DNA of 64,000 bases. It comes from a phage. The notes beneath the pieces were generated by a model. The model did no database searches. It saw only the letters and a list, made by a program, of their open reading frames with translations, and was not told where the DNA came from. The DNA lies in NCBI GenBank assembly GCA_028909515.1, contig GCA_028909515.1_4811.1; one strand, 5' to 3'. Shown here one piece after another: positions 48,727-61,683 of this stretch (the stretch's first letter is position 1; each line of letters starts with the position of its first letter). Position numbers and translations under genes: made by a program.

Positions 48727-48885
48727 TGTTGACGTAAATTTACGAAAAATAAAACTGAAAATCAGTTTAATTAAAGTGGCATTGCCGCCATAGTTTTTAG
48801 TTGCTACTGGCGGCGACTGAAGGCATAATTAAGTTATCCCAAACGGGGAATATAAAATAAACTAATTTATTTAAGGACTGTGAAT

Positions 48886-49725
48886 ATGGCCGAAGCAATC
48901 AAAGTATTATCTAAAGAAGAAAAACAAGCAGCCGCAGCAGAACGTCGTCGCGTGGCTGAAGAAAAACGCCTGGCTAAAAAGAAAGAAGCCGAAGAAAAAC
49001 GCCAGAAGCGTGAGCAGGAAAAACAAGCCAAGCGTGAAGAAGCTGCGCTGAAACGCAAGCAGGCTGCTGATGAGAAGGCTCAGAAGCGTGCTGAAGAAGC
49101 AGCTAAGAAAGCTAAAGAGCGTGCAGAAAAGGCTGCTGCTAAGAAAGCAGAGCGTGAAGCCGCTAAAGCAGCAAAAGAAATCGAAAAGGCAAAGGCTAAA
49201 GAAGAAGCCAAGCGCCTGAAAGCTGAGCAGGCTGCGGCCAAGAAAGCAGAGCGTGATCAAGCCCGTGCTGCAGCGAAGGCCGAAAAAGAGAAGGCCAAAG
49301 AAGAAGCTAAAGCGAAACGCAAGGCAGAGCGTGAAGCTGCTAAGATTGCGGCGAAAGAAGCTGCAGAACAGCAGAAAGAACAGCGTAAGAAAGAAGCTGA
49401 AGAACGTCGCAAAGCCATCGCAGAACGTAAGGCTGCTAAAAAGGCAAACGGTCAGCGTCGTGCAAAAGCCACTCACTTCATCTACACTGGCAATGGCCTG
49501 AGCCAGCCGCAAGAGCATTCCACCCGTGGACGCGTTCTGGCGGCGATCAAAGAAGGCGAAGTTGGCGTGGCGCAGTCTATCGATGAGCTGGGCGAAAAAG
49601 TTAAAGATCAACTGTTTGGCGCTTCCGTTCGCTCCTACCTGAGCAAGCTGGAAGAGATGGGCCACATCGAGTTTGTCGATGTTGAATCCAACGGCGATGC
49701 CGAAGACGGTGATCAAGCGGAATAA
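48886..49725 (+). CDS. Charged Glu/Lys/Ala/Arg-rich protein with a globular C-terminal domain
   Basis: ATG at 48886 with an AAGGA site (track begins at a GTG, 48880). About 190 aa of KAAK/EEKR low-complexity sequence, then an ~80 aa non-repetitive tail. Confidence 0.55.
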   Translation: MAEAIKVLSKEEKQAAAAERRRVAEEKRLAKKKEAEEKRQKREQEKQAKREEAALKRKQAADEKAQKRAEEAAKKAKERAEKAAAKKAEREAAKAAKEIEKAKAKEEAKRLKAEQAAAKKAERDQARAAAKAEKEKAKEEAKAKRKAEREAAKIAAKEAAEQQKEQRKKEAEERRKAIAERKAAKKANGQRRAKATHFIYTGNGLSQPQEHSTRGRVLAAIKEGEVGVAQSIDELGEKVKDQLFGASVRSYLSKLEEMGHIEFVDVESNGDAEDGDQAE

Positions 49726-49778: not shown

Positions 49779-49804
49779 CGTCTGTACTAAATAGAAATGA
49801 CTTG

Positions 49805-49833
49805 TTGCTGTAAAATAATTTAGCTATTATACT
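49805..49833 (+). promoter_or_regulatory. Sigma70-like promoter upstream of the flavoprotein gene
   Basis: TTGCTG, 17 nt spacer, TATACT. Confidence 0.4.
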
Positions 49834-49857
49834 TCTCATATCACCCACAAAGGACAA

Positions 49858-50853
49858 ATGAACATGAAACAACCTGTAATGATTATCGGCGGCGGACTGG
49901 CAGGACTTATCACCGCGTGTCACTTCCCGAACTCTATTGTGTACGAAGCAGGGGAACGAGCGCAACAGCACAAGGCACTGCTACGCTTTCGCGGCGAAGA
50001 AGTAAGCCGTATTACCGGAATCCCTTTTAAGGCCGTGACAGTTGACAAGGCTGTGTATTTTCGCGGTAACTACTACCACGACCATTGCCCAATCAACCTT
50101 GCCAATATGTATTCCATGAAGGTCACCAATCAGTTTGGCAGTCGTTCAATCATGAAGCTTAAAACTGCAACGCGTTATATTGCGCCTGATGACTTTTATG
50201 ATCAGCTTGTCGACAAACTGGGTGACCGCATATTCTTTAATACTCCGGTTGATACTCTTTGCGGCTATAGCGAGACGCCAATCATCAACACGTCGCCGCT
50301 GCCAGTAATGATGAAGCTTGCTGGGATTGATCAAAAGCTTGATTTCTCATTTGATAAAGCAAACATTCGCGTTTACCGCTTTAAGATTAAACGTAAGTGT
50401 GATTTGTATCAGACAATTTACTTCCCTGACTACTCCGTCAGAACTTACCGCGCATCAATTACTGGTGACACGCTTATCATTGAAACAATTCCTTTGGTCA
50501 GCGTGAGTGAAGCTGCAGTTGAAGCCGCTGGCGGCATCACCCGTTATCGCGACATGAAGCTGCGCGCGGAAGTGGACGAAGTTCTGACCGCTTTTGGTCT
50601 TTCATGGAATGACATCTCTTTGGAAGAAGTTGAAAAGGTTGACCAGAAGTATGGCAAGATTGTAGACATTCCGAAAGACTTGCGACACGCCTTACTGCTC
50701 CAGCTGACTATGGATTTGAACGTATTCAGTGTTGGCCGATTCGCTACATGGCGCAACATCTTGCTTGATGACGTAGCTCATGACCTTGTTGAAGTTGAAA
50801 AACTCATCAAAGCAAATAACTATCAAAAATTTGCTTATATTGCTAATAAATAA
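49858..50853 (+). CDS. FAD/NAD(P)-binding oxidoreductase-like protein
   Basis: 331 aa. N-terminal Rossmann motif VMIIGGGLAGL. Exact family not resolved. Confidence 0.5.
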   Translation: MNMKQPVMIIGGGLAGLITACHFPNSIVYEAGERAQQHKALLRFRGEEVSRITGIPFKAVTVDKAVYFRGNYYHDHCPINLANMYSMKVTNQFGSRSIMKLKTATRYIAPDDFYDQLVDKLGDRIFFNTPVDTLCGYSETPIINTSPLPVMMKLAGIDQKLDFSFDKANIRVYRFKIKRKCDLYQTIYFPDYSVRTYRASITGDTLIIETIPLVSVSEAAVEAAGGITRYRDMKLRAEVDEVLTAFGLSWNDISLEEVEKVDQKYGKIVDIPKDLRHALLLQLTMDLNVFSVGRFATWRNILLDDVAHDLVEVEKLIKANNYQKFAYIANK

Positions 50854-50895
50854 TTTGCTTTCTTCTTCAATGTGCGTATACTTTAATCATTGAAG
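50854..50895 (+). promoter_or_regulatory. Sigma70-like promoter with an inverted repeat straddling the -10
   Basis: TTTGCT, 17 nt spacer, TATACT. CTTCAATG at 50865-50872 pairs with CATTGAAG at 50888-50895. Confidence 0.4.
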
Positions 50896-50918
50896 CAGAA
50901 CTCATAGAGGAAACGAAA

Positions 50919-51365
50919 ATGAAACGAATCACTGGAATCGCGCTTGCCGCGACTGCTATTCTCGGCACCATGTATATGGAAGCGACTGAAGCCGCCGTCC
51001 GTACTTCCGATTCAATCGCTGTTTACGATTGTGAAGCGATGGACGGTAAGACCGCAGCAACGACTGGTGCGAAGATTACCACTTACATCGGTGTGAATGA
51101 GCAAGAAGGTCTGAATATTCAGATTCAGGGATTCACGGGAAAAGGCGCCAACCGGACTCCGTGGATGCAGCGTTTCACTTTCGTTCAACCTCGTTCAACT
51201 GGCGCCTTTATCAACCTGATTGGTGAAAACCGTTCTGGTGCAGAAATCTTTACATCAATGAGTTCCAATAATGAACCAAAGAAAAGTTTTCAGTTGCTTT
51301 ATAACGCACAATTCGTTTATCATTGCACCTTCTCTGGTGATCAGCAACTAGTTAACTACCGTTAA
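50919..51365 (+). CDS. Secreted or periplasmic protein
   Basis: 148 aa. Signal-peptide-like N-terminus MKRITGIALAATAILG. Confidence 0.5.
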   Translation: MKRITGIALAATAILGTMYMEATEAAVRTSDSIAVYDCEAMDGKTAATTGAKITTYIGVNEQEGLNIQIQGFTGKGANRTPWMQRFTFVQPRSTGAFINLIGENRSGAEIFTSMSSNNEPKKSFQLLYNAQFVYHCTFSGDQQLVNYR

Positions 51366-51378
51366 TAGGATAATTAAA

Positions 51379-52182
51379 ATGAAAGTTGAATTAATTCGAT
51401 ACACCCAAGATGCACTTGACCTTTTGCTGGAAACAAAGAACACGCGCATGACTGGTAAGCCAGTCTCTGAGATGACAGAATCAGAGAAGCAAGAGCACTG
51501 GCGATACATGCTTGACACAATCAAGTCGCCTTTTGATTTTGTGGACTATATCTTTGACATCACTGATGTATCAAAGAATATGACTCATCAGATGGTGCGC
51601 ACGCGCACAGGTGCATATCAAGAACGTACAAGCCGCGCTCAGGAATCTTCTGCTTTTGATGCGATTCGTCCTGCCAAATTTACTTACCCAGAGGATGATC
51701 CAAAGGGATGGACTCGTCATGACGAGAAGGCTGCTGAACTGGCAGAGAAATGGGATGATGCGATGGCCACGATTGACGCCCTCTACCAAGAGCTTCGCGC
51801 GGCTGGCGCAGAGATTCAAGATGCACGTGCCGTGTTGCCTTCTAATATGCAAACGCATATCATGGCAAAGTTCAACTTGCGAACGCTGCAACAGATGGCG
51901 TCAAACCGCTTGTGCACGCGCACCCAAGGCGAGTATCAGGAAGTTTTCCGTGCGATGGTAGCTGAAGTCCTCAAGGTGCATCCGTGGGCTAATCCTTTAC
52001 TACAGCCGCAATGCATCGGCATGGGCAAGTGCGCATTCCCTCGCCATGGCAAGGCCCATTGCCCTTGGTATCGTGATTGGATGGATACCACTGCACAGCA
52101 AGAAGAATTACGCATCCAGTTTTGGAATGCAATGCCAATCACCAATAATCCGGTTGCCAAAGATGGAGTATCAAAAGGATGA
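51379..52182 (+). CDS. ThyX-like protein (flavin-dependent thymidylate synthase fold) with altered signature motif
   Basis: 267 aa. C-terminal ARAVLPSNMQTHIMAKFNLRTLQQMASNRLC resembles ThyX. The canonical RHR...S motif position reads VRTRTGAYQERTS. Confidence 0.55.
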   Translation: MKVELIRYTQDALDLLLETKNTRMTGKPVSEMTESEKQEHWRYMLDTIKSPFDFVDYIFDITDVSKNMTHQMVRTRTGAYQERTSRAQESSAFDAIRPAKFTYPEDDPKGWTRHDEKAAELAEKWDDAMATIDALYQELRAAGAEIQDARAVLPSNMQTHIMAKFNLRTLQQMASNRLCTRTQGEYQEVFRAMVAEVLKVHPWANPLLQPQCIGMGKCAFPRHGKAHCPWYRDWMDTTAQQEELRIQFWNAMPITNNPVAKDGVSKG

Positions 52183-53051
52183 GCATTAAAAACAGCGAAA
52201 TCTTAAACGTATTCGACCTTGACGGAACGCTGTTTGATGACCGTTGGCGCTTAGACCGCATCAAGGTGGCAGGTCCGTTGTCAGACTATGATGACTATCA
52301 CAGCGGTATTGGTTATGATCAGTTCTATCCTCACATTGCATCAGCAGTAGAGTCGGCATCTCTTCGCGGTGAGGCGGTTGAATATTGGACTGCAAGGCCA
52401 GAAAAATACAGACAAGTGACTTTTGAACGTCTGGACAATGTTTTCCCTTTTGATGAATTTACAATCAAGATGAGAGACTATGGCGACAAACGTCCATCAA
52501 CTATCATGAAATCTGCATGGCTATCGCACGCATTGCGGCACGGTGATTATCGAATCATCAATGTATTCGACGACCGACAAGACGTACTCGCGCGGATGCA
52601 AGATGAAGCATTGTATTATAATTCCGTTGCTCAAAATAAAATCGCTTTTACATTTAATCTTTGCAAGGCAGGTGAAGTGGTGCAACAATTAGCAATTGAT
52701 CCAAGCGCAACAGGGCAAGAAGAGACTAAGGCTGTGGAAGTTGAACAATCTCCGGCAACTGCCGCCGATATTCTTGATGCAATGGCAGCAACCTTCCGTG
52801 AGCGCAACGCTGTCTATGGCGATAACGCTGTGATGGTAGGTCAGGTTATGCAGGTGCTTTTCCCTAATGGCGTAACGTTGAAAACGCCGGAAGACTACCA
52901 CATGTGGCATCTGTTCGAGCTTAAGATTGTCAAGCTTACACGCTTTGCAATCAGCGGCCTGAAGCACGAAGACTCTATACACGATGATGGTGTTTACAGC
53001 GCCATGTGTGAACGTCTTGTAAACACCCATAATATTAATTTCAATAAATAG
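52179..53051 (+). CDS. HAD-family phosphatase fused to an unassigned C-terminal domain
   Basis: 290 aa. Motif I LNVFDLDGTLFDD and motif IV INVFDDRQD in the N-terminal ~150 aa. Confidence 0.55.
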   Translation: MSIKNSEILNVFDLDGTLFDDRWRLDRIKVAGPLSDYDDYHSGIGYDQFYPHIASAVESASLRGEAVEYWTARPEKYRQVTFERLDNVFPFDEFTIKMRDYGDKRPSTIMKSAWLSHALRHGDYRIINVFDDRQDVLARMQDEALYYNSVAQNKIAFTFNLCKAGEVVQQLAIDPSATGQEETKAVEVEQSPATAADILDAMAATFRERNAVYGDNAVMVGQVMQVLFPNGVTLKTPEDYHMWHLFELKIVKLTRFAISGLKHEDSIHDDGVYSAMCERLVNTHNINFNK

Positions 53052-53095
53052 TTTACTTGTGCGTTTCGATGAGTTATATTTACCTCATCGAAACG
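53052..53095 (+). promoter_or_regulatory. Sigma70-like promoter with an 11-12 bp inverted repeat straddling the -10
   Basis: TTTACT, 17 nt spacer, TATATT. CGTTTCGATGAG pairs with CTCATCGAAACG. The leader TCATCGAAACGAA recurs at 59915. Confidence 0.45.
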
Positions 53096-53116
53096 AAGTC
53101 CAAAAAGGATAAATAA

Positions 53117-53800
53117 ATGAAAAAAGTAATTGTTGTAACAGGTTCCAATTCCGGTCTTGGTAAATCTATTTTTGACACCCTTGGCGCTTACGGTCATAAC
53201 GTGCTTGGCATCGATTCAGCATACGGATATGACGTCCGCGATGCTAAACAGATGAAAGAAATTTTAAGCCCATATGATGTTGAAGGCTTGATCAACTGTG
53301 CTGGTGTCAACTCTAACAACTGGTTCGAAGATGTTAACTACGAAGAGTTCAATCGCGTTATGCACACCAACGCCTTCTCTTTCGTCAACACGACTCAGGC
53401 CGCGCTGAAAAGTCTTATCGACAACAAAGGCTTTGTGATCAACATCGTTTCCAACGCTGCGCATATTCCTATGACGTCCAGCTTGTGTTATAATGCATCC
53501 AAGGCTGCTGCGCTTATGATCAGCAAGCAGATGGCTCACGAACTTACGCCTAAGTACGGCATCACGGTATTCTCTATTAGTCCTAACAAGTTGCGCGGCA
53601 CTGGCATGTCTAAACAGATTGAAGATGCCGTTTGTGCGACTCGCGGCTGGACTCCTGAATACGCTGCTGAATACCAGAAAAAGGCATTGATGAATGGATT
53701 GGAGACTGAGCCGCAAGTAATTGCCGACTTCATTCGCCATATCTTAATTACGGGCGCATGGCGCTTTATGTCTGGCACTGATATTCCATTTGGTAAATAA
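53117..53800 (+). CDS. Short-chain dehydrogenase/reductase (SDR) family oxidoreductase
   Basis: 227 aa. Motifs VIVVTGSNSGLGKS, NCAG and catalytic YNASK. Confidence 0.75.
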   Translation: MKKVIVVTGSNSGLGKSIFDTLGAYGHNVLGIDSAYGYDVRDAKQMKEILSPYDVEGLINCAGVNSNNWFEDVNYEEFNRVMHTNAFSFVNTTQAALKSLIDNKGFVINIVSNAAHIPMTSSLCYNASKAAALMISKQMAHELTPKYGITVFSISPNKLRGTGMSKQIEDAVCATRGWTPEYAAEYQKKALMNGLETEPQVIADFIRHILITGAWRFMSGTDIPFGK

Positions 53801-53896
53801 ATCACGAACATTTTAAGTTGTCACACCCGCTCCTGAAAAGAAACAGGACGAAGACAACACAGTAATTAATCAATAATATTTAATTAAGGAAACAAA

Positions 53897-54448
53897 ATGC
53901 CACATTTTAAAATTGAACAAATCGCCCTGTCAATTCCAGATGCTCAGCGCGCACAGGATTTCTTGGCTAAAATCGGCCTGACGGAATGGTTCCATGATCA
54001 TGTTGTTGCTACTGGTCGCGTATTTGAAGCTGATGACTTTAAAGGTCGTCGCGACGATTGCACCAATGAAGCTGACTTGCGCTTCAACTATCAGGCTGGC
54101 AACGGTACTGATGGCGGCGCTGGTAAGCCTCTTGAGCTTGAAATACTTGACTACACAATGGGCTGCAACTGGATTAACGAAAACATCGAATATATCGATG
54201 CGCATGACAATCAGGTCAGCCACCTTGGCATGCATGTGACTGCCGCTGAACTTGCTGAATGGCGTAAGTTCTTTAGCGAAGAAGGCATTCAGGTTGCACA
54301 GGAAGTTGTAACTGACTCTCATACCAACCCGAACATTGCTGGTCAACGTCGTTACAACTATGTGATCTTTGATACGCGTGAAATCATCGGTGTTGATTTG
54401 AAGTTTATCGTGCGCTTGAATCAAGACGGTACTCCGTACACTGTATAA
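53897..54448 (+). CDS. Hypothetical protein, possibly glyoxalase/VOC-like
   Basis: 183 aa. N-terminal KIEQIALSIPDAQRAQDFLAKIGL pattern. Weak assignment. Confidence 0.35.
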   Translation: MPHFKIEQIALSIPDAQRAQDFLAKIGLTEWFHDHVVATGRVFEADDFKGRRDDCTNEADLRFNYQAGNGTDGGAGKPLELEILDYTMGCNWINENIEYIDAHDNQVSHLGMHVTAAELAEWRKFFSEEGIQVAQEVVTDSHTNPNIAGQRRYNYVIFDTREIIGVDLKFIVRLNQDGTPYTV

Positions 54449-54464
54449 CGAATCGTGAATCTGT

Positions 54465-54489
54465 GGCCGTCCTAATGGGCGGCCTTTTT
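54465..54489 (+). terminator. Rho-independent terminator
   Basis: GGCCGTCC, 4 nt loop, GGGCGGCC (one G-U pair), then TTTTT. Confidence 0.6.
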
Positions 54490-54502
54490 GTAGGAGGCTA
54501 AT

Positions 54503-55045
54503 GTGTTATTTCTCCCTTATGACTTCGAAACAACCGGATTGACCGTGCACCCGAAAGCGCCGCTTGGGATGCAGCCGCGCCCTATTGAATTTGCAGGTCT
54601 GTTGACAGACGGCAAAGAGATTCTTGAAACGTTTGAATTCATAATTAATCCTGAAATCGTGATTGAAGAAATTATCACAAAGATTACCGGATTAACAAAT
54701 GAAGACCTTGAGTGCAATCCACCATTCATCAATTTCGTCCCGCAGCTAAAAGAAATCTTCAAGAAGACTGATGCAACTATCGCGCACAACCATGCGTTCG
54801 ATAAAAACATTCTTGATTATGCACTACAGCGCGAAGGACTTACGCTTGATGATGTTAATTTTCCAGAAATAAACATATGTACAGTTGAGCAAACCTTGCC
54901 TATTTTTGGCCGAAGAGTTAAGCTTCAAGAGCTGTATGAATTATATTTCGGAAAATATGAACAGAAGCACCGTGCATTAGACGACGTAATATTACTGCAC
55001 AAAGTCTGCCAACAAATTGGCGTATATGACATCTGGAGTAAATAA
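54503..55045 (+). CDS. DnaQ-like 3'-5' proofreading exonuclease
   Basis: 180 aa. GTG start with AGGAGG site. Exo motifs LPYDFETTGL, AHNHAFDKNIL and HRALDDV. Stop overlaps the polymerase start. Confidence 0.8.
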   Translation: MLFLPYDFETTGLTVHPKAPLGMQPRPIEFAGLLTDGKEILETFEFIINPEIVIEEIITKITGLTNEDLECNPPFINFVPQLKEIFKKTDATIAHNHAFDKNILDYALQREGLTLDDVNFPEINICTVEQTLPIFGRRVKLQELYELYFGKYEQKHRALDDVILLHKVCQQIGVYDIWSK

Positions 55046-57942
55046 TGTTTCCACAATTGAGAGTTCGCAGCGGTTACACGTTCAAAGAAGTTTATGGACG
55101 GCATCCTGAAATTATAGCACGGCTCAAAGAGTTGGGCTGCGAAGTCGCGGCATTAGTTGATAACAACACATGGGGTCACGTCCGCTGGGAAAAGGAATGC
55201 CAGAAAAATGATATTAAGCCTATGTTTGGGATGGAGATTCCAATCATCGACCCTGATGCGGACCCTAAAAAGGGATTCAAACCGAAGGCTTGGATATTGG
55301 CCCTTGACTTAAAATCTTTTTACAACGCTACGACACTTGCAACGCAGCGTGGTGGCCTTACCCGTGCAGAGTTCGGTGCGCTTGATGGCGTCGTTAAATT
55401 CTGTGGCGGTGCCGTTGAGCTGCTGCGGCCAGAGGACTACGATTATATAGACGTCAACCCATCATCGTTCCTTTTGGCTAAGCGCCAGGTGTTGGCTCAC
55501 CGCAGCAACGGAAGGCCGCTGGTTTTAACCGGATACAACCACATGCCTTCACCTAAGCACGTTGACTTTGCTTATGCTTGGGAAGTGCGCGACACGGTCA
55601 AGCCGCACTGCATCGTTGACGCGGAAGACTTGCGCAAACAGCTTAAAGGCATCTTGACTGAAGATGAGCTCAATCAGGCAACGGCCAATGCTGTTGACAT
55701 AGCAAACGGCATAGTCGGACTTGACCTGAAATTGCGTAAGGCACCGATTATTCACCTTGCTGGTGACATGGTAAAGCTTGCTCGCGAGGGGATGGAGTAT
55801 CGTCTCAAAGCAGGTCACATCAAAGAGTGGACTCAGGAATATGAGGACCGCTTCAACGAAGAAATTCACCAGATTCAGCTGAAAGATTTCGACTCATACT
55901 TTCTGGTAGTAGCGGACCTTGTACGATTCGCAAAAACAAAAATGCTCGTCGGGCCTGCTCGCGGCTCATCGGCTGGTTCACTTGTTTGCTATTGCCTCGG
56001 CATCACGGAAGTGGACCCAATCCCGTATAAGCTGCTGTTTGCCCGATTCATCGACGTAAGCCGCGCCGACCTTCCTGACATCGACATCGACTTTGAAGAT
56101 ACCAAACGCTACATGGTGTTTGATTATCTTAAAGAGAAATATGGCGAAATGAACGTTGCAAAGCTTGGCAACATCAACACGCTTAAGGCCAACTCAGTAA
56201 TGGCGCAGGTTGGTAAGAAGTTCAACATTGGATACCACGAAACGGCCAACATTAAAAACGCACTGCTTGAATACTCATCCGGTGACGCCCGTTATGGTCA
56301 CGGCCTGGAGGATACCTTTGCAACAACGACCACGGGCCAAGAGTTTGTGGCGAAATATCCTGACGCCGCGCGTTGCATGGGTGACCTTGAGATTCACCCG
56401 TCTCACACAGGTGTTCACGCAGCGGGAATCATTGTGTGTAATGACCCAATCTCTGATTACTGTACTGTAACTGCAGAAGGGATTGCGCAAATCGATAAGC
56501 CTGACAGCGAATACCTAAACCTTTTGAAGCTTGATGCGCTGGGCCTTCGTACTCTCGGAATCATTTCTGATACTGGCGTGATAGATGCTGAAACGCTGTA
56601 CGGAATCAAGCTTGATGACCAAAGCGTCCTTGACATCCTTAACGAAAACAAGATGTCAGGCATCTTCCAGTTTGAAGGCGACGCTGTACGCTCAGTAACC
56701 AACTTTGTGCACGTTGATAACTTTAACAAAATCGATAACCTGACAGCACTTGGCCGACCTGGCCCGTTGTCGTCCGGTATGGCCCAGAAATACATTGAAC
56801 GCGCGGCAGGACGTGCGCCGATTGAGTACGACGTGCCGCAGCTTGAGCCGTACTTAAAAGAGACTTACGGCGTGTTTCTTTACCAAGAGCAAATCATGGC
56901 CGTGGTTAAAGAGATTGGTTCATTTGACTGGGCGAAAACATCCGCTGTACGTAAGGCGATGTCAGGTCGTAAGGGTGAGGAATACTTTAACAAGCTTGGC
57001 GAAGACTTCGTTGCAGGAGCAATAAATAACGGCGTACCGGAAGCGGATGCAAGAAAGCTTTGGCAAGCGATGGCGACGTTCGGGTCATGGGGCTTTAACA
57101 AGTCACACTCCGTATCATACGCGGTCGTGACCTACTGGACCTTGTGGCTTAAGCGACACTACCCGTTGGAATTTGCCGCTGCTTGCTTACGCGCTGCTAA
57201 GGACGAAGACCAGACGATTGCGATATTACGTGAACTTGCGAAGGAAGGCGTGGATTATGTGCCAATCGACCCTGATCACTCTTCAATGAACTGGACCATC
57301 GCTAACGGAAAGCTAATCGGCGGCATCATGAACGCAAAAGGATATGGCATGGTGAAGGCAATGAAGTATATCGAAGCACGTGAAGCCGGAACCTTAACGC
57401 AAAAGCAAAAGGATGCATTGGCCAATGCTGAAGTCAAATACGGCGACCTTACAGAGATGCACACAAAGTTCGGATGGGCATATAATGACCCCTATCTGAT
57501 TGGCGTTACTTCCGGTGCTTCAATACGCCAGATGAAGGAAGTCGGCGATGACGAGCGTGCAATAGTGATCGGCAAGTTGACCAAGAAAGTGCTGGCTGAC
57601 GAGAACGAAGCGACACGCATCCGTAAACGTCTTGAGCGCGGCATTTATACAAAGCACGGCAAACTTAAAAAGGGTCTTCAAGCTGATGGCCGCTACGCAG
57701 AGTTTGACCAGTATGGAAACAAGCTTGAGACTCAGTTCATTGACCTTATGTGCAAGGACGATTCGACCGACTCGCCAATGCGCTTCAGGATTCGTCCAGA
57801 GAAGTTCCAGAAATACGGGAAATACATTGCAGAGAACGTCGGGAACGGCGCATTCTTCCTGATGAAAGGCCGCAAACTTGAAGGCATTGACATGTTCATC
57901 GTCGACGTTATCAAACAGGTGTATCCAGATGGCAACAAATAA
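55045..57942 (+). CDS. DNA polymerase III alpha-like (DnaE family) replicative polymerase
   Basis: 965 aa. Catalytic LPDIDIDFED and SYAVVTYWTLWLKRHYPLEFAAACL. N-terminus QLRVRSGYT sits where PHP domains carry a His-x-His metal site. Confidence 0.8.
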   Translation: MFPQLRVRSGYTFKEVYGRHPEIIARLKELGCEVAALVDNNTWGHVRWEKECQKNDIKPMFGMEIPIIDPDADPKKGFKPKAWILALDLKSFYNATTLATQRGGLTRAEFGALDGVVKFCGGAVELLRPEDYDYIDVNPSSFLLAKRQVLAHRSNGRPLVLTGYNHMPSPKHVDFAYAWEVRDTVKPHCIVDAEDLRKQLKGILTEDELNQATANAVDIANGIVGLDLKLRKAPIIHLAGDMVKLAREGMEYRLKAGHIKEWTQEYEDRFNEEIHQIQLKDFDSYFLVVADLVRFAKTKMLVGPARGSSAGSLVCYCLGITEVDPIPYKLLFARFIDVSRADLPDIDIDFEDTKRYMVFDYLKEKYGEMNVAKLGNINTLKANSVMAQVGKKFNIGYHETANIKNALLEYSSGDARYGHGLEDTFATTTTGQEFVAKYPDAARCMGDLEIHPSHTGVHAAGIIVCNDPISDYCTVTAEGIAQIDKPDSEYLNLLKLDALGLRTLGIISDTGVIDAETLYGIKLDDQSVLDILNENKMSGIFQFEGDAVRSVTNFVHVDNFNKIDNLTALGRPGPLSSGMAQKYIERAAGRAPIEYDVPQLEPYLKETYGVFLYQEQIMAVVKEIGSFDWAKTSAVRKAMSGRKGEEYFNKLGEDFVAGAINNGVPEADARKLWQAMATFGSWGFNKSHSVSYAVVTYWTLWLKRHYPLEFAAACLRAAKDEDQTIAILRELAKEGVDYVPIDPDHSSMNWTIANGKLIGGIMNAKGYGMVKAMKYIEAREAGTLTQKQKDALANAEVKYGDLTEMHTKFGWAYNDPYLIGVTSGASIRQMKEVGDDERAIVIGKLTKKVLADENEATRIRKRLERGIYTKHGKLKKGLQADGRYAEFDQYGNKLETQFIDLMCKDDSTDSPMRFRIRPEKFQKYGKYIAENVGNGAFFLMKGRKLEGIDMFIVDVIKQVYPDGNK

Positions 57943-59945: not shown

Positions 59946-60209
59946 ATGGTACGCATCCTTGAACGTTACAAAAATGAAGCTACTGGTGCAATCGCTTTCA
60001 AACGTCTTTTGGTCAAAGAAATTGACGGGATGTTCCGCGTTGTTAAAGAGTTTGATTATGGCAACGGTGCTGGGGTGAATACCGTTATTATGCCTGGCAT
60101 CAAGGCATATAAAACATTGAAAGGCGCTGAGAAGGCTTTGGCGGCTTGGAAACCTGAACGTTATCAAATGACCCGTGTTGAAGGGCTAATGCAAGAAGGT
60201 AAAATATGA
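59946..60209 (+). CDS. Hypothetical protein
   Basis: 87 aa ORF. Confidence 0.4.
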   Translation: MVRILERYKNEATGAIAFKRLLVKEIDGMFRVVKEFDYGNGAGVNTVIMPGIKAYKTLKGAEKALAAWKPERYQMTRVEGLMQEGKI

Positions 60210-60763
60210 GCAATATTAATTGGGAAGATGATTTGCCGCAGGTCGCTCCTGAGAGCATTCAAGAGCGCCTTGCGCGCTTAGTATCTGAACTGGCAGAACG
60301 CCAAGAAGCTTTGACAGAGCTTGAAGATGAAGCTGATATGCAAAAGCAGCGAATCAGTGAAATCAAAACTGTTCTGCTTCCTGGCGTTATGGATGAGCTT
60401 GGCGTGTCCGAAATCAAGCTTGAGGACAAGACCAAAATCAAGGTCGAGTCCAAGGTGAACGCTTCAATCAAGAAAGAAAACGAATTAAAAGTTTTCGATT
60501 GGCTTGTCAACAACGGTTACGGCGGCTTGATCAAGTCCAGCGTCACGGCTGAGTTCGGTCGCGAAGAAATCGAACAGGCGCAAGAGATTGTTGCCGCGCT
60601 GCGTGAAGATGGTGTTGAAGCCACGTTGAAACAAGGCGTTCATTCTGCTACACTGAAGTCGTTTGTAAAAGAACAGCTGGAAGCGGGCAATCCAGTTAGT
60701 GAAGATATTAGCGTTTTTGAATACAAAGAAGCTAAAATAACCTTGCCTAAAAGCAAAAAGTAA
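60206..60763 (+). CDS. Hypothetical acidic protein
   Basis: 185 aa. Acidic, helix-like N-terminal region. Confidence 0.4.
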   Translation: MSNINWEDDLPQVAPESIQERLARLVSELAERQEALTELEDEADMQKQRISEIKTVLLPGVMDELGVSEIKLEDKTKIKVESKVNASIKKENELKVFDWLVNNGYGGLIKSSVTAEFGREEIEQAQEIVAALREDGVEATLKQGVHSATLKSFVKEQLEAGNPVSEDISVFEYKEAKITLPKSKK

Positions 60764-60822
60764 TTTAACCTTTATCTTGAAATCAGGTTGCCACGAAACT
60801 TGATACTATAGGAAAATATCAA

Positions 60823-61683
60823 ATGTCTAAGAAAGAAACCACCGAAGTTGCAGTGAAAAACACCCAGATGTCCGCTATGGCTGATTTTGTCGACATGACC
60901 GATTTTGGCGCTGGTTTTGAAGGTGCCGATGCCGATGCGTATGCCATTCCTTTTATCGTCGTACTGCAGAAGATGTCTCCTATGGTCGACGAAGATGATC
61001 CGAAACACGTTCCTGGCGCAAAAGCTGGCATGCTTTACAACACCGTTACTGGTGAGTTGTATGACGGCAAGAAAGGCGTGCAGATCATCCCTTGCGCATT
61101 CAAACGCACCTTCATTCTTTGGGGCGGTCGCGAGTCCGACGATAAAGGCTTTAAAGGTGAATTCACCAAAGAGCACGTTGATGCAGAAGTCGCGGCAGGC
61201 CGCGCTGTTGAGATCAACGGTAAGGTATTCGTGCCGGACGAAAACGGCAAGGTGCACGAGAAGAAATCTCCTTACTACGCAGATACACGCAACCACTTCG
61301 TAATTCTGTTGAACGAAGAAACTGGTGAATTTGGTAGCGCAATGCTGTCTCTGACTTCTTCCATGATCAAGCCGTCTCGCATGCTGATGACCGCCCTGCA
61401 GCAGAAGAAAGTTCAGACTCCGCAGGGTCTGAAAACGCCGCCGACCTTTATGAACATTGTTCGCATGGGTACTGCATCCCAGTCCAAAGACGGCAATACA
61501 TGGTCTGTTCTGAAGTTTGAGCTGGAAGGTCTGGTGCAGGACAAAGGTCTGTACGAAGTCGCCAAGGCATTCCACAACGACGTAGTTGGCGGTAACGTTA
61601 ACATCGACCGCAGCAAGCAGGAAGAAGCAAGCGGTGCCGCTGGTCCTGTCAATGAAACTCCGACCGACGCAGAAGAGTTTTAA
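60823..61683 (+). CDS. ssDNA-binding protein-like (acidic C-terminal tail ending in Phe)
   Basis: 286 aa. C-terminus ETPTDAEEF resembles SSB interaction tails. No OB-fold verified. Confidence 0.4.
   Translation: MSKKETTEVAVKNTQMSAMADFVDMTDFGAGFEGADADAYAIPFIVVLQKMSPMVDEDDPKHVPGAKAGMLYNTVTGELYDGKKGVQIIPCAFKRTFILWGGRESDDKGFKGEFTKEHVDAEVAAGRAVEINGKVFVPDENGKVHEKKSPYYADTRNHFVILLNEETGEFGSAMLSLTSSMIKPSRMLMTALQQKKVQTPQGLKTPPTFMNIVRMGTASQSKDGNTWSVLKFELEGLVQDKGLYEVAKAFHNDVVGGNVNIDRSKQEEASGAAGPVNETPTDAEEF

What the first reader, a model, noticed from the sequence alone, without database searches (positions are those of the whole stretch)
51379..52182. ThyX-like protein in which the RHR signature reads RTR
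The protein aligns to flavin-dependent thymidylate synthase along its length, but where ThyX has RHR followed by a conserved Ser and RY, it reads VRTRTGAYQERTSRAQ. Changes at substrate-binding residues suggest altered specificity, for example a flavin-dependent pyrimidine modification other than dTMP synthesis.
Basis: partly seen in the sequence, partly recalled or inferred. Interest (0 to 1): 0.65.

Follow-up and report, generated by a model that had tools for sequence, protein, structure and literature searches.

The report
Virus-only ThyX variant in flavoenzyme cassette
This phage gene is a real but unusual relative of the flavin-dependent thymidylate synthase ThyX: it belongs to a virus-only branch that lacks four residues conserved in the cellular enzymes sampled, always sits beside an uncharacterised flavoprotein, and is a good candidate for starting the unexplained thymidine hypermodification recently found in related phages.

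Summary
ORF 51379-52182 (+) encodes a 267-aa Thy1/ThyX-fold protein that reads VRTRTGAYQERTSRAQ where ThyX has RHR...S.RY. The window is a Wifcevirus-like E. coli myophage.

RTR is only part of the change. Against 68 cellular ThyX, an 86-member viral branch has replaced His53, His59, His79 and Tyr91 (T. maritima numbering). It keeps every dUMP-binding Arg/Gln and most FAD ligands. So nucleotide recognition is probably unchanged; the folate/flavin-control side is what differs.

The gene is always preceded by a 331-aa flavoprotein of unknown function whose fold is closest to UDP-galactopyranose mutase and protoporphyrinogen oxidase. This holds in 76 of 76 IMG/VR loci with room downstream, and also in PB1, a podophage and a 207-kb Rhizobium phage. 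A HAD phosphatase usually follows, often with an SDR and a VOC enzyme.

A 2025 preprint reports sugar-bearing hypermodified thymidine in the sister genus Pbunavirus, with no known modification genes. Wifceviruses resist restriction without a known mechanism.

Best reading (about 0.5): the protein adds the C5 carbon to dUMP within a thymidine-hypermodification cassette. Main rival (about 0.38): a divergent, possibly two-component, dTMP synthase.

The parts
51379..52182 (+). ThyX-like (Thy1-fold) protein, 267 aa, member of the virus-only non-canonical branch
   Evidence: ORF. Pfam Thy1 107 bits. TIGR02170 thyX equivalog 83.1 bits, below the 87.9 cutoff. AF2 model pLDDT 95.4. Foldseek top hits are T. 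maritima ThyX, TM 0.76 normalised to target.
51595..51642 (+). Motif VRTRTGAYQERTSRAQ (residues 73-88): R74-T75-R76 replaces RHR, T84 replaces Ser88, R86-A87 replaces Arg90-Tyr91
   Evidence: RTR in 120/120 close homologues. At this position the viral branch has T58/H14/N7/S6/Q1; cellular ThyX have H in 68/68.
51520..51540 (+). I48...F54 (DTIKSPFDF), replacing the conserved His53 and His59 of ThyX (H.S..EH)
   Evidence: His53 is H in 67/67 cellular sequences and I/V/L in 86/86 viral. His59 is H in 65/68 cellular and F in 86/86 viral.
51826..51909 (+). Retained nucleotide-binding arginines R150 (Tm R147) and R177 (Tm R174), and FAD ligands N166/R168 (Tm N163/R165)
   Evidence: R74, R150 and R177 are invariant in 118 sequences. 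They are R in 68/68 cellular and 86/86 viral sequences.
51913..52062 (+). Four-cysteine motif C179, C212, C218, C228 that bridges the R177 loop and the C-terminal extension; probable metal site
   Evidence: All-or-none pattern: 73 sequences CCCC, 44 with none (the segment is deleted), 1 CCAC. No match to a solved ThyX covers the C-terminal cysteines, and the two aligned (C. glutamicum, M. tuberculosis) lack the first Cys. Coordinates. The metal is inferred, not shown.
49858..50853 (+). 331-aa FAD-type flavoprotein of unknown function (phrog_4828, no Pfam family), obligate upstream partner of the ThyX-like gene
52179..53051 (+). HAD phosphatase (PNKP-phosphatase type, DxDGT motif) fused to a conserved C-terminal domain of unknown family; its start overlaps the ThyX-like stop
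   Evidence: Pfam HAD_PNKP 33.5 bits. phrog_4889. The C-terminal domain has no Pfam hit. Present downstream in 63-68 of 80 IMG/VR loci and in PB1, the Rhizobium phage and MAG contigs.
53117..53800 (+). Short-chain dehydrogenase/reductase (FabG-like), frequent cassette member
   Evidence: Pfam adh_short 109 bits. Found in 49/80 loci, always after the HAD gene.
53897..54448 (+). VOC (glyoxalase/dioxygenase-fold)-like protein, frequent cassette member
   Evidence: Weak Pfam Glyoxalase_4 hit, E 0.004, below cutoff. Found in 47/80 loci. Co-occurs with the SDR: 46 loci have both, 30 have neither.
54503..55045 (+). DnaQ-type 3'-5' exonuclease followed by the Pol III alpha gene (55045-57942); this is the replication context of the cassette
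   Evidence: Pfam RNase_T 78.7 bits. Bas101 and PB1 annotation. Present in 57/80 loci.

Best explanation
The protein is a virus-specific paralogue of flavin-dependent thymidylate synthase. It keeps the ThyX tetramer fold, the FAD site and the full arginine cage that binds and polarises dUMP. It most likely still uses reduced-flavin N5 chemistry to attach a carbon to C5 of a free dUMP-type nucleotide. It has replaced the His53/Tyr91 network, together with His59 and the His of RHR, by aliphatic, Phe and Thr residues. In ThyX, His53 stacks on the folate or the flavin and hydrogen-bonds Tyr91, and Tyr91 is proposed to assist loss of water from the flavin carbinolamine. The protein works inside a collinear cassette: an unknown UGM/PPO-like flavoprotein, then the ThyX-like gene, then a HAD phosphatase, with or without an SDR and a VOC enzyme. 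I propose that this cassette makes the precursor of a hypermodified thymidine. Either the 5-methylene intermediate is released in functionalised form (for example 5-hydroxymethyl-dUMP), or dTMP made by the ThyX-like enzyme is re-oxidised and elaborated by the partner flavoprotein. Shown here: fold, retained and lost residues, branch distribution, gene linkage. Inferred: FAD and dUMP binding, C5 alkylation, the link to DNA hypermodification, and the product.
For: Fold and family membership. All dUMP-contacting residues are kept, while H53, H59, H79 and Y91 are replaced in the viral branch. Those four are H, H, H and Y/H/F in 67/67, 65/68, 68/68 and 68/68 cellular ThyX. One NJ branch separates the 87 viral from the 68 canonical sequences. 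Tyr91 and Ser88 are described as strictly conserved and critical, and His53 stacks folate or flavin and H-bonds Tyr91 (PMC11940539). The branch occurs only on phage records, IMG/VR contigs and short MAG contigs. The partner flavoprotein has matching phage counts: Pseudomonas 292/292, Escherichia 27/27, Serratia 9/9. It lies upstream on the same strand in 14/14 loci and in 76/80 IMG/VR loci; the other four end within 1.9 kb. The two genes overlap in podophage Ss1, and both are present in a 207-kb Rhizobium phage with a different polymerase. Gene order is fixed. No ThyA, 5-HMUDK, aGPT-Pplase, TET/JBP or glycosyltransferase was detected in the window ORFs scanned. This leaves the cassette as the main metabolic-enzyme-like set in the genome; a MazG-like pyrophosphatase lies elsewhere. 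Pbunavirus F8 and 14-1 DNA carry thymidine derivatives of 362 u and 390 u at TG sites, replacing about a quarter of T, and no biosynthetic genes are proposed (PMC12191111). Wifceviruses are insensitive to EcoKI, EcoRI, EcoRV and EcoCFT_II despite 30 EcoRI sites, with 'no known genome protection mechanism'.
Against: There is no biochemical or genetic evidence for any member of the branch. The reported Pbunavirus modification is TG-specific, which implies a DNA-level step that a mononucleotide enzyme cannot explain by itself. No dNMP kinase or proven dTTP-exclusion enzyme was found; only a MazG-like protein and a HAD phosphatase. About 16% of the branch keeps His in RHR. In the Rhizobium phage the gene sits with dUTPase and RNR, dCMP deaminase is also encoded, and it is the only TS-family gene found. 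That is also what a plain thymidylate synthase would look like. Gene order among PB1-like phages is partly conserved by descent. DNA modification in Wifcevirus itself has not been measured.
Confidence: 0.5

Rival explanations
1. It is a genuine but divergent dTMP synthase that boosts the thymidylate supply for phage replication. The partner flavoprotein could serve as a dedicated reductase, making a two-component FDTS. The HAD, SDR and VOC genes would then be functionally unrelated neighbours.
For: Every dUMP-binding and activating residue and most FAD ligands are retained. The gene lies in the replication module next to the exonuclease and Pol III alpha. In Rhizobium phage RHph_TM40 it is the only TS-family gene found, and that phage also encodes dCMP deaminase, dUTPase and RNR. 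Scores lie close to the TIGR02170 cutoff, 83.1 against 87.9. Pbunavirus DNA is still about 75% ordinary T.
Against: His53, His59, His79 and Tyr91 are conserved in the cellular enzymes sampled, and Tyr91 is kinetically critical. The variant was found in no cellular genome, although thyX/thyA are transferred frequently. The hosts already have ThyA. The Rhizobium phage carries DHFR, which a ThyX-type reaction does not require (the ThyX/DHFR relationship is from my own knowledge). The strict flavoprotein linkage and the fixed five-gene order are not expected for a stand-alone synthase.
Confidence: 0.38
2. It acts on a different substrate: dCMP, UMP (as the polyoxin enzyme PolB does), or uracil/thymine within DNA.
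For: The ThyX paralogue PolB methylates UMP as well as dUMP (PMC5954106). The Pbunavirus modification is motif-specific (TG), so some enzyme must act on DNA.
Against: The arginines that bind the 5'-phosphate (R74, R76, R150) and those that read the uracil carbonyls (R86, R177) are invariant. This argues for a free uracil mononucleotide and against cytosine or polymer substrates. In ThyX the active site buries the nucleotide at a three-subunit interface (own knowledge of the 1O26 structure).
Confidence: 0.07
3. It is a catalytically dead ThyX relic retained for a structural or regulatory role.
For: It has lost four conserved ThyX residues and scores below the NCBIfam equivalog cutoff.
Against: There is strong purifying selection on the remaining active-site residues across 86 or more sequences at 30-99% identity. 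The replacements are themselves conserved (F54 in 86/86, I/V/L48 in 86/86), which indicates a remodelled site rather than a decayed one.
Confidence: 0.03

Closest known systems
Canonical flavin-dependent thymidylate synthase ThyX (e.g. T. maritima TM0449, PDB 1O26/4GT9; Pfam PF02511; TIGR02170)
   Same: Same fold (Foldseek prob 1.0, TM 0.76 normalised to target). Same arginine cage for dUMP, and the same Q75, Q180, E182 and FAD ligands S/T55, E58, N163, R165.
   Different: His53->Ile, His59->Phe, His79->Thr, Tyr91->Ala, Ser88->Thr. It has a ~64-aa C-terminal extension carrying three of the four cysteines. It scores below the equivalog cutoff, occurs only in viruses, and is always paired with an unknown flavoprotein.
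ThyA-family phage hydroxymethylases (dUMP hydroxymethyltransferase of 5-hmdU phages; T4 dCMP hydroxymethylase)
   Same: This is the functional analogy proposed here: a thymidylate-synthase paralogue in a phage that stops short of reduction and supplies the C5 carbon for hypermodified pyrimidines (PMC8989533).
   Different: Unrelated fold and cofactor chemistry. ThyA-type enzymes use an active-site Cys and folate hydride; this protein is flavin-based. No ThyA-fold gene is present here. The activity has not been demonstrated.
PolB, the ThyX paralogue of polyoxin biosynthesis
   Same: A precedent that ThyX paralogues are recruited to make modified pyrimidine nucleotides for secondary pathways (PMC5954106).
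   Different: PolB is bacterial, remains a methylase (UMP and dUMP), and is not described with a flavoprotein partner. Its motif status was not examined here.
Thymidine hypermodification of Pbunavirus F8 and 14-1 (Yee et al., bioRxiv 10.1101/2025.03.31.646159)
   Same: The sister genus carries the same ThyX-like, flavoprotein and HAD genes in the same order. Its modification is a C5-methyl-linked sugar or polyol on thymidine.
   Different: The preprint names no biosynthetic genes. The PB1-type cassette lacks the SDR and VOC genes present in this window. F8 DNA is cut by EcoRI, whereas Wifceviruses are EcoRI-insensitive in vivo.
5-hmdU-based pathways with 5-HMUDK kinase and aGPT-Pplase/AADT transferases (phages M6, ViI, PaMx11, PhiW-14)
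   Same: They yield partial, post-replicative replacement of T by a C5-methylene-linked group. A FAD oxidoreductase (PaMx11 gp47) is among the tailoring enzymes.
   Different: No P-loop 5-HMUDK, aGPT-Pplase, PLP, radical-SAM or TET/JBP family was detected in the window ORFs scanned.

Membership tests
ThyX / FDTS (Pfam Thy1 PF02511) | Match to the Thy1 domain model and ThyX fold | tested here: met
   107 bits against a cutoff of 24.8, covering the full profile. AF2 model with Foldseek top hits all ThyX.
ThyX / FDTS (functional equivalog, TIGR02170) | Score at or above the curated equivalog cutoff | tested here: not met
   83.1 bits against a cutoff of 87.9. A canonical metagenomic ThyX scores 156.
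ThyX / FDTS | ThyX motif RHRX7S (Myllykallio 2002, as used in PMC2826268) | tested here: not met
   The sequence reads R-T-R-X7-T. His is present in 68/68 cellular enzymes.
ThyX / FDTS | Extended motif: His53 (folate/flavin stacking) and Arg90-Tyr91 | tested here: not met
   I48 and R86-A87. The roles of H53 and Y91 are from PMC11940539.
ThyX / FDTS | dUMP-binding residues R78, R80, R90, R147, R174 and Q75 | tested here: met
   R74, R76, R86, R150, R177 and Q71. These are invariant or nearly invariant in 118 sequences.
ThyX / FDTS | NADPH/CH2-THF-dependent conversion of dUMP to dTMP; complementation of thyA | not testable with these tools
   Requires an enzyme assay or genetics.
ThyA-family dUMP/dCMP hydroxymethylases | ThyA (thymidylat_synt) fold | tested here: not met
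   No ThyA similarity in the window, Bas101, the PB1 locus, the Ss1 locus or the Rhizobium phage (tblastn).
Known thymidine-hypermodification systems (5-HMUDK + aGPT-Pplase/AADT) | P-loop 5-hmU DNA kinase and aGPT-Pplase genes in the genome | tested here: not met
   No such Pfam families in 27 window ORFs scanned or in the Bas101 annotation. ORFs shorter than ~100 aa were not scanned.
UGM / PPO / amine-oxidase flavoprotein superfamily (for the 331-aa partner) | Two-domain FAD fold with an N-terminal GxGxxG dinucleotide-binding motif | tested here: met

The most novel reading that the evidence does not exclude
The ThyX-like enzyme and its UGM/PPO-like flavoprotein partner, with the HAD phosphatase and optionally the SDR and VOC enzymes, are the missing biosynthetic machinery for the sugar- or polyol-bearing hypermodified thymidine of Pbunavirus, and for an inferred equivalent in Wifcevirus. 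This would be the first flavin-dependent (ThyX-family) route to a C5-functionalised deoxyuridylate. It would make either 5-hydroxymethyl-dUMP or, more radically, a reductive C5-alkylation of dUMP by a sugar aldehyde carried on flavin N5. By my own arithmetic, 362.33 u = dU + aldopentose - H2O + 2H, and 390.34 u = dU + hexose - H2O. Both masses are equally consistent with 5-hmdU ethers or glycosides.
Probability: 0.4. Interest if true: 0.9.

Novelty: new variant of a known kind. Interest (0 to 1): 0.72.

Why it matters
ThyX is studied as an antibacterial target and as a model of covalent flavin catalysis. A large natural branch that dispenses with His53 and Tyr91 would test current mechanistic models.

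Pbunaviruses are among the most used therapeutic Pseudomonas phages. Their DNA was only recently reported to be hypermodified, and no pathway is known. Wifceviruses resist restriction for unknown reasons. The cassette described here gives both problems a short list of genes to knock out or express.

If confirmed, it would add a second, evolutionarily independent thymidylate-synthase family to the enzymes that phages have repurposed for DNA hypermodification. It would also give function to a flavoprotein family of about 2,000 sequences with no Pfam domain on record for the 120 members listed.

Tried and rejected
- **Pseudogene or chance variant.** Rejected. RTR is fixed in 120/120 homologues and the replacements are themselves conserved.
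Not supported. The uracil- and phosphate-binding arginines are intact.
- **A cellular genome that uses this variant as its only thymidylate synthase** (a natural complementation test). None found. All 68 cellular hits are canonical, and the 12 non-canonical hits lie on MAG contigs of 1.6-58 kb.
- **A second thymidylate synthase co-encoded with the variant.** No ThyA in the window, Bas101, PB1, Ss1, the Rhizobium phage (1-182 kb), or within 10 kb in 80 IMG/VR loci. The redundancy test therefore could not discriminate.
- **Known hypermodification or defence families.** None found by Pfam on 27 ORFs or by PADLOC on six cassette and MazG proteins.
- **A solved ThyX with the four-Cys motif.** None found: no alignment to a solved ThyX reaches the C-terminal cysteines, and the two aligned lack the first Cys.
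- **Relating the HAD C-terminal domain to DUF3310 of podophage Ss1.** No detectable similarity.
- **Ulmer et al. 2008 (PMC2258874), ThyX mutagenesis.** Not held in the library.
- **Literature search.** No paper in the library links ThyX to Pbunavirus or Wifcevirus modification.
Full report
**What is there**

The window is a Wifcevirus-like Escherichia myophage. Nucleotides 49800-55100 are 95-96.5% identical to phages SP13, F13, EC150 and Bas101. The protein itself is 100% identical to that of phage TH35.

ORF 51379-52182 (+) encodes 267 aa. It has an AGGA ribosome-binding site upstream, and its stop overlaps the next gene's start (ATGA). Pfam Thy1 (PF02511) matches residues 5-203 across the whole profile at 107 bits. 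An AlphaFold2 model built on 118 homologues has pLDDT 95.4, and all its best PDB matches are ThyX. The last ~64 residues lie outside the Thy1 model.

**The RTR change is the visible part of a larger remodelling**

HMMER alignment to T. maritima ThyX gives these correspondences (PDB chain numbering minus 12):

| T. maritima ThyX | This protein |
|---|---|
| Q75 | Q71 (kept) |
| R78 | R74 (kept) |
| H79 | T75 |
| R80 | R76 (kept) |
| S88 | T84 |
| R90 | R86 (kept) |
| Y91 | A87 |
| R147 | R150 (kept) |
| R174 | R177 (kept) |
| H53 | I48 |
| H59 | F54 |

I then compared 68 cellular ThyX, recovered by one GTDB genome scan, with 86 members of the branch that contains this protein:

| Position (Tm numbering) | 68 cellular ThyX | 86 viral-branch sequences |
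|---|---|---|
| His53 | H in 67/67 | I/V/L in 86/86 |
| His59 | H in 65/68 | F in 86/86 |
| His79 | H in 68/68 | T 58, H 14, N 7, S 6, Q 1 |
| Tyr91 | Y 60, H 7, F 1 | never Y (V/I/T/A/L) |
| Ser88 | S in 68/68 | S 46, T 28, A 12 |

R78, R80, R90, R147, R174, Q75, Q180 and E182 are conserved in both groups. RTR is fixed in 120/120 closest homologues. On a neighbour-joining tree one branch separates the 87 viral sequences from the 68 canonical ones. The viral set was partly chosen by motif, so that split is not fully independent. The protein scores 83.1 bits on NCBI's thyX equivalog model, below the 87.9 cutoff.

**What the changed residues do in ThyX**

The RHR motif hydrogen-bonds the AMP phosphate, ribityl and FMN phosphate of FAD (PMC6514825). 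His79->Thr therefore touches the cofactor, not the pyrimidine.

His53 stacks on the folate pterin, or on the reduced isoalloxazine, and hydrogen-bonds Tyr91 and Asn85. Tyr91 and Ser88 are described as strictly conserved and critical. Tyr91 is proposed as the general acid for loss of water from the flavin carbinolamine, and its mutation slows flavin oxidation about 1000-fold (PMC11940539).

So the nucleotide side of the pocket is intact, while the folate/flavin-control side has been rebuilt with aliphatic residues. A change in what happens after carbon transfer remains plausible.

**Distribution**

The whole-library search found 1,624 relatives. The nearest ones form the TIxSSWEF...R[T/H/S/N/Q]R...QQ[ST]xR[V/T/A] type.

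In isolated phages the branch occurs in Pbunavirus (PB1 gp61, 48.6% identity), Wifcevirus, Serratia, Pantoea and Burkholderia phages, and Rhizobium phages of about 207 kb. Gordonia, Mycobacterium and Clostridium phages give only distant matches of 24-30% identity.

In GTDB species genomes the only non-canonical hits are 12 MAG contigs of 1.6-58 kb with scattered taxonomic labels. Eleven of them show the non-canonical motif, and they carry the same cassette genes as the phage loci. Every hit in Spirochaetota, Leptospira, archaeal, Clostridia and other MAGs is canonical. I found no cell that relies on this variant.

**A conserved partner and cassette**

Evidence that it travels with the ThyX-like gene:
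- Upstream on the same strand in 14/14 loci first examined: PB1, Rhizobium phage RHph_TM40 and 12 MAG contigs.
- Overlapping the ThyX-like gene in the 42-kb podophage Ss1.
- The same phage-record counts for the main host groups: Pseudomonas 292/292, Escherichia 27/27, Serratia 9/9.
- In 80 IMG/VR loci anchored on the flavoprotein, the ThyX-like gene follows within 18-2,870 bp in 76. The other four contigs end within 1.9 kb.

The commonest order, seen in 39 loci, is flavoprotein > ThyX-like > HAD phosphatase with C-terminal domain > SDR > VOC-fold protein > DnaQ exonuclease. A shorter, PB1-type form lacks SDR and VOC in at least 14 loci. SDR and VOC co-occur: 46 loci have both, 30 have neither. 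No ThyA, DHFR or dUTPase lies within 10 kb in any of the 80.

The Rhizobium phage uses a family-A polymerase encoded elsewhere in its genome and still keeps the flavoprotein, ThyX-like and HAD trio. The linkage is therefore not only inherited synteny of PB1-like replication modules.

**Biological context from the literature**

[quoted passage not shown] Bas101 has 30 EcoRI, 14 EcoRV, 87 EcoCFT_II and 90 EcoP1_I sites. This window has 19 EcoRI and 3 EcoRV sites.

A 2025 preprint (PMC12191111) studied Pbunavirus F8 and 14-1:
- F8 virion DNA resists five restriction enzymes whose sites contain TG.
- The DNA contains novel thymidine derivatives of 362 u (F8) and 390 u (14-1) that replace about a quarter of T.
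- The authors interpret these as a tetrose sugar-alcohol derivative and a cyclic aldopentose derivative.
- The family is presented as one that lacks known modification genes, and no pathway is proposed.

In this window 26% of T is followed by G. Known thymidine hypermodifications start from 5-hmdU made by a ThyA-family hydroxymethylase or a TET/JBP enzyme, and continue through 5-HMUDK and aGPT-Pplase (PMC8989533). I found none of these in the Pfam scans of 27 window ORFs or in the Bas101 annotation. No paper in the library connects the ThyX-like gene to these modifications.

**Interpretation**

With fair confidence, the protein binds FAD and a uracil 5'-mononucleotide and performs flavin-N5-mediated carbon transfer to C5. 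This is inferred from the retained residues.

Several observations point away from a simple dTMP synthase and towards a multi-step cassette in which this enzyme installs the C5 carbon:
- the coordinated loss of His53, His59, His79 and Tyr91;
- the absence of the branch from the cellular genomes scanned;
- the fixed pairing with a UGM/PPO-like flavoprotein;
- the collinear HAD, SDR and VOC genes;
- the absence of other candidate enzymes in genomes whose relatives carry C5-methyl-linked sugar modifications.

Two sub-variants fit. In the first, the exocyclic methylene intermediate is released in functionalised form, for example by water addition to give 5-hmdUMP. In the second, the enzyme makes dTMP and the PPO-like partner re-oxidises the methyl group for nucleophile addition.

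A bolder idea is that a sugar aldehyde takes the place of formaldehyde on flavin N5. This agrees numerically with both reported masses: dU + pentose - H2O + 2H = 362.33, and dU + hexose - H2O = 390.34 (my own arithmetic). So do ordinary 5-hmdU ethers and glycosides.

I put the cassette-for-hypermodification reading at about 0.5.

**Main rival and weaknesses**

A divergent, or two-component, dTMP synthase remains quite possible (about 0.38):
- The dUMP cage is intact.
- The gene sits among replication genes.
- Pbunavirus DNA is still about 75% T.
- In Rhizobium phage RHph_TM40 it is the only TS-family gene found in 1-182 kb, and that phage also encodes dCMP deaminase, dUTPase and RNR.

That phage also encodes DHFR, which a ThyX-type reaction does not need. 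This is weak evidence against the rival (the ThyX/DHFR relationship is from my own knowledge).

Weaknesses of the preferred reading:
- The TG specificity of the Pbunavirus modification requires a DNA-level step that is not identified here.
- No dNMP kinase or dTTP-exclusion enzyme was found.
- Wifcevirus DNA has not been analysed chemically.

**An additional feature**

Four cysteines (C179 next to R177, then C212, C218 and C228 in the C-terminal extension) show an all-or-none pattern: 73 sequences have all four, 44 have none, and one has CCAC. The pattern also occurs in nine sequences with canonical His53 and Tyr91. No match to a solved ThyX extends over the C-terminal cysteines, and the C. 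glutamicum and M. tuberculosis enzymes lack the first one. This suggests an uncharacterised metal site.

**Verdict**

- Novelty: a new variant of a known kind, namely a virus-only ThyX branch with an obligate flavoprotein partner inside a conserved cassette.
- Interest is high, because it turns two open questions into a short list of knock-outs and enzyme assays: the biosynthetic origin of Pbunavirus thymidine hypermodification, and the unexplained restriction resistance of Wifcevirus.

**Caveats on inputs**

The ThyX region 46-201 agrees with the PDB alignment.

Noticed in passing
window 51913-52062 (C179, C212, C218, C228 of the ThyX-like protein): A four-cysteine motif with an all-or-none distribution: 73 sequences CCCC, 44 with none. 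It also occurs in nine sequences with canonical His53 and Tyr91. No alignment to a solved ThyX covers the C-terminal cysteines, and the two aligned lack the first one. It may be a Zn or Fe-S site next to the catalytic Arg177 loop.
   Followed up: partly
window 50919-51365 (+): A 148-aa ORF with an N-terminal signal-peptide-like segment (MKRITGIALAATAILGTMYMEATEAA), inserted between the flavoprotein and the ThyX-like gene. It has no Pfam, NCBIfam or PHROG hit and gave no match in PB1, the Rhizobium phage or the 12 MAG contigs. It looks like a moron-type insertion.
   Followed up: partly
window 48880-49725 (+): A 281-aa protein whose first ~190 residues are an extreme Lys/Ala/Glu-rich low-complexity tract. 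This coincides with the AT-skew spike at 48-50 kb. The C-terminal ~130 aa is 43% identical to PB1 gp69. No family hit; the function is unknown.
   Followed up: partly
L086 615-1130 and L089 14066-17335 (Rhizobium phage RHph_TM40, MN988522.1): This 207-kb phage encodes DHFR, dCMP deaminase, dUTPase, RNR and a 5'-deoxynucleotidase but has no ThyA in 1-182 kb. Its only TS-family gene is the non-canonical ThyX-like one (R-N-R motif). DHFR together with a ThyX-type enzyme is an unusual combination. It also encodes two ASCH-domain proteins and a 2OG-Fe(II) oxygenase.
   Followed up: partly
L005-L016 (GTDB MAG contigs): Twelve MAG contigs labelled Cellvibrionaceae, Alphaproteobacteria, Elusimicrobiota, Bacillota, Dehalococcoidia, Bacteroidetes and others carry the cassette genes: the flavoprotein in all twelve, mostly with HAD and DnaQ exonuclease as well. 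They are probably viral contigs mis-binned into bacterial genomes.
   Followed up: partly
whole window: TA dinucleotides are depleted (observed/expected 0.69) and GC is enriched (1.31). The window has 86 EcoP1_I sites (AGACC, both strands). EcoP1_I is the only RM system reported to restrict Wifceviruses, and one strand of its recognition sequence contains no T.
   Followed up: no
window 60206-61683 (+): Two adjacent ORFs match the recently defined Pfam families DUF7307 (Pam3 gp33-like, 128 bits) and Pam3_Gp34 (289 bits). They lie between the helicase and the spanin/MazG/ligase genes and are annotated only as hypothetical in Bas101.
   Followed up: no
L085 7570-8250 (Cronobacter phage Ss1 orf32): In the podophage the gene after the ThyX-like one is a weak HAD-like domain fused to DUF3310. 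The Wifcevirus HAD protein carries a different C-terminal domain with no family. So a HAD-type phosphatase recurs at this position, but its fused partner domain varies.
   Followed up: partly
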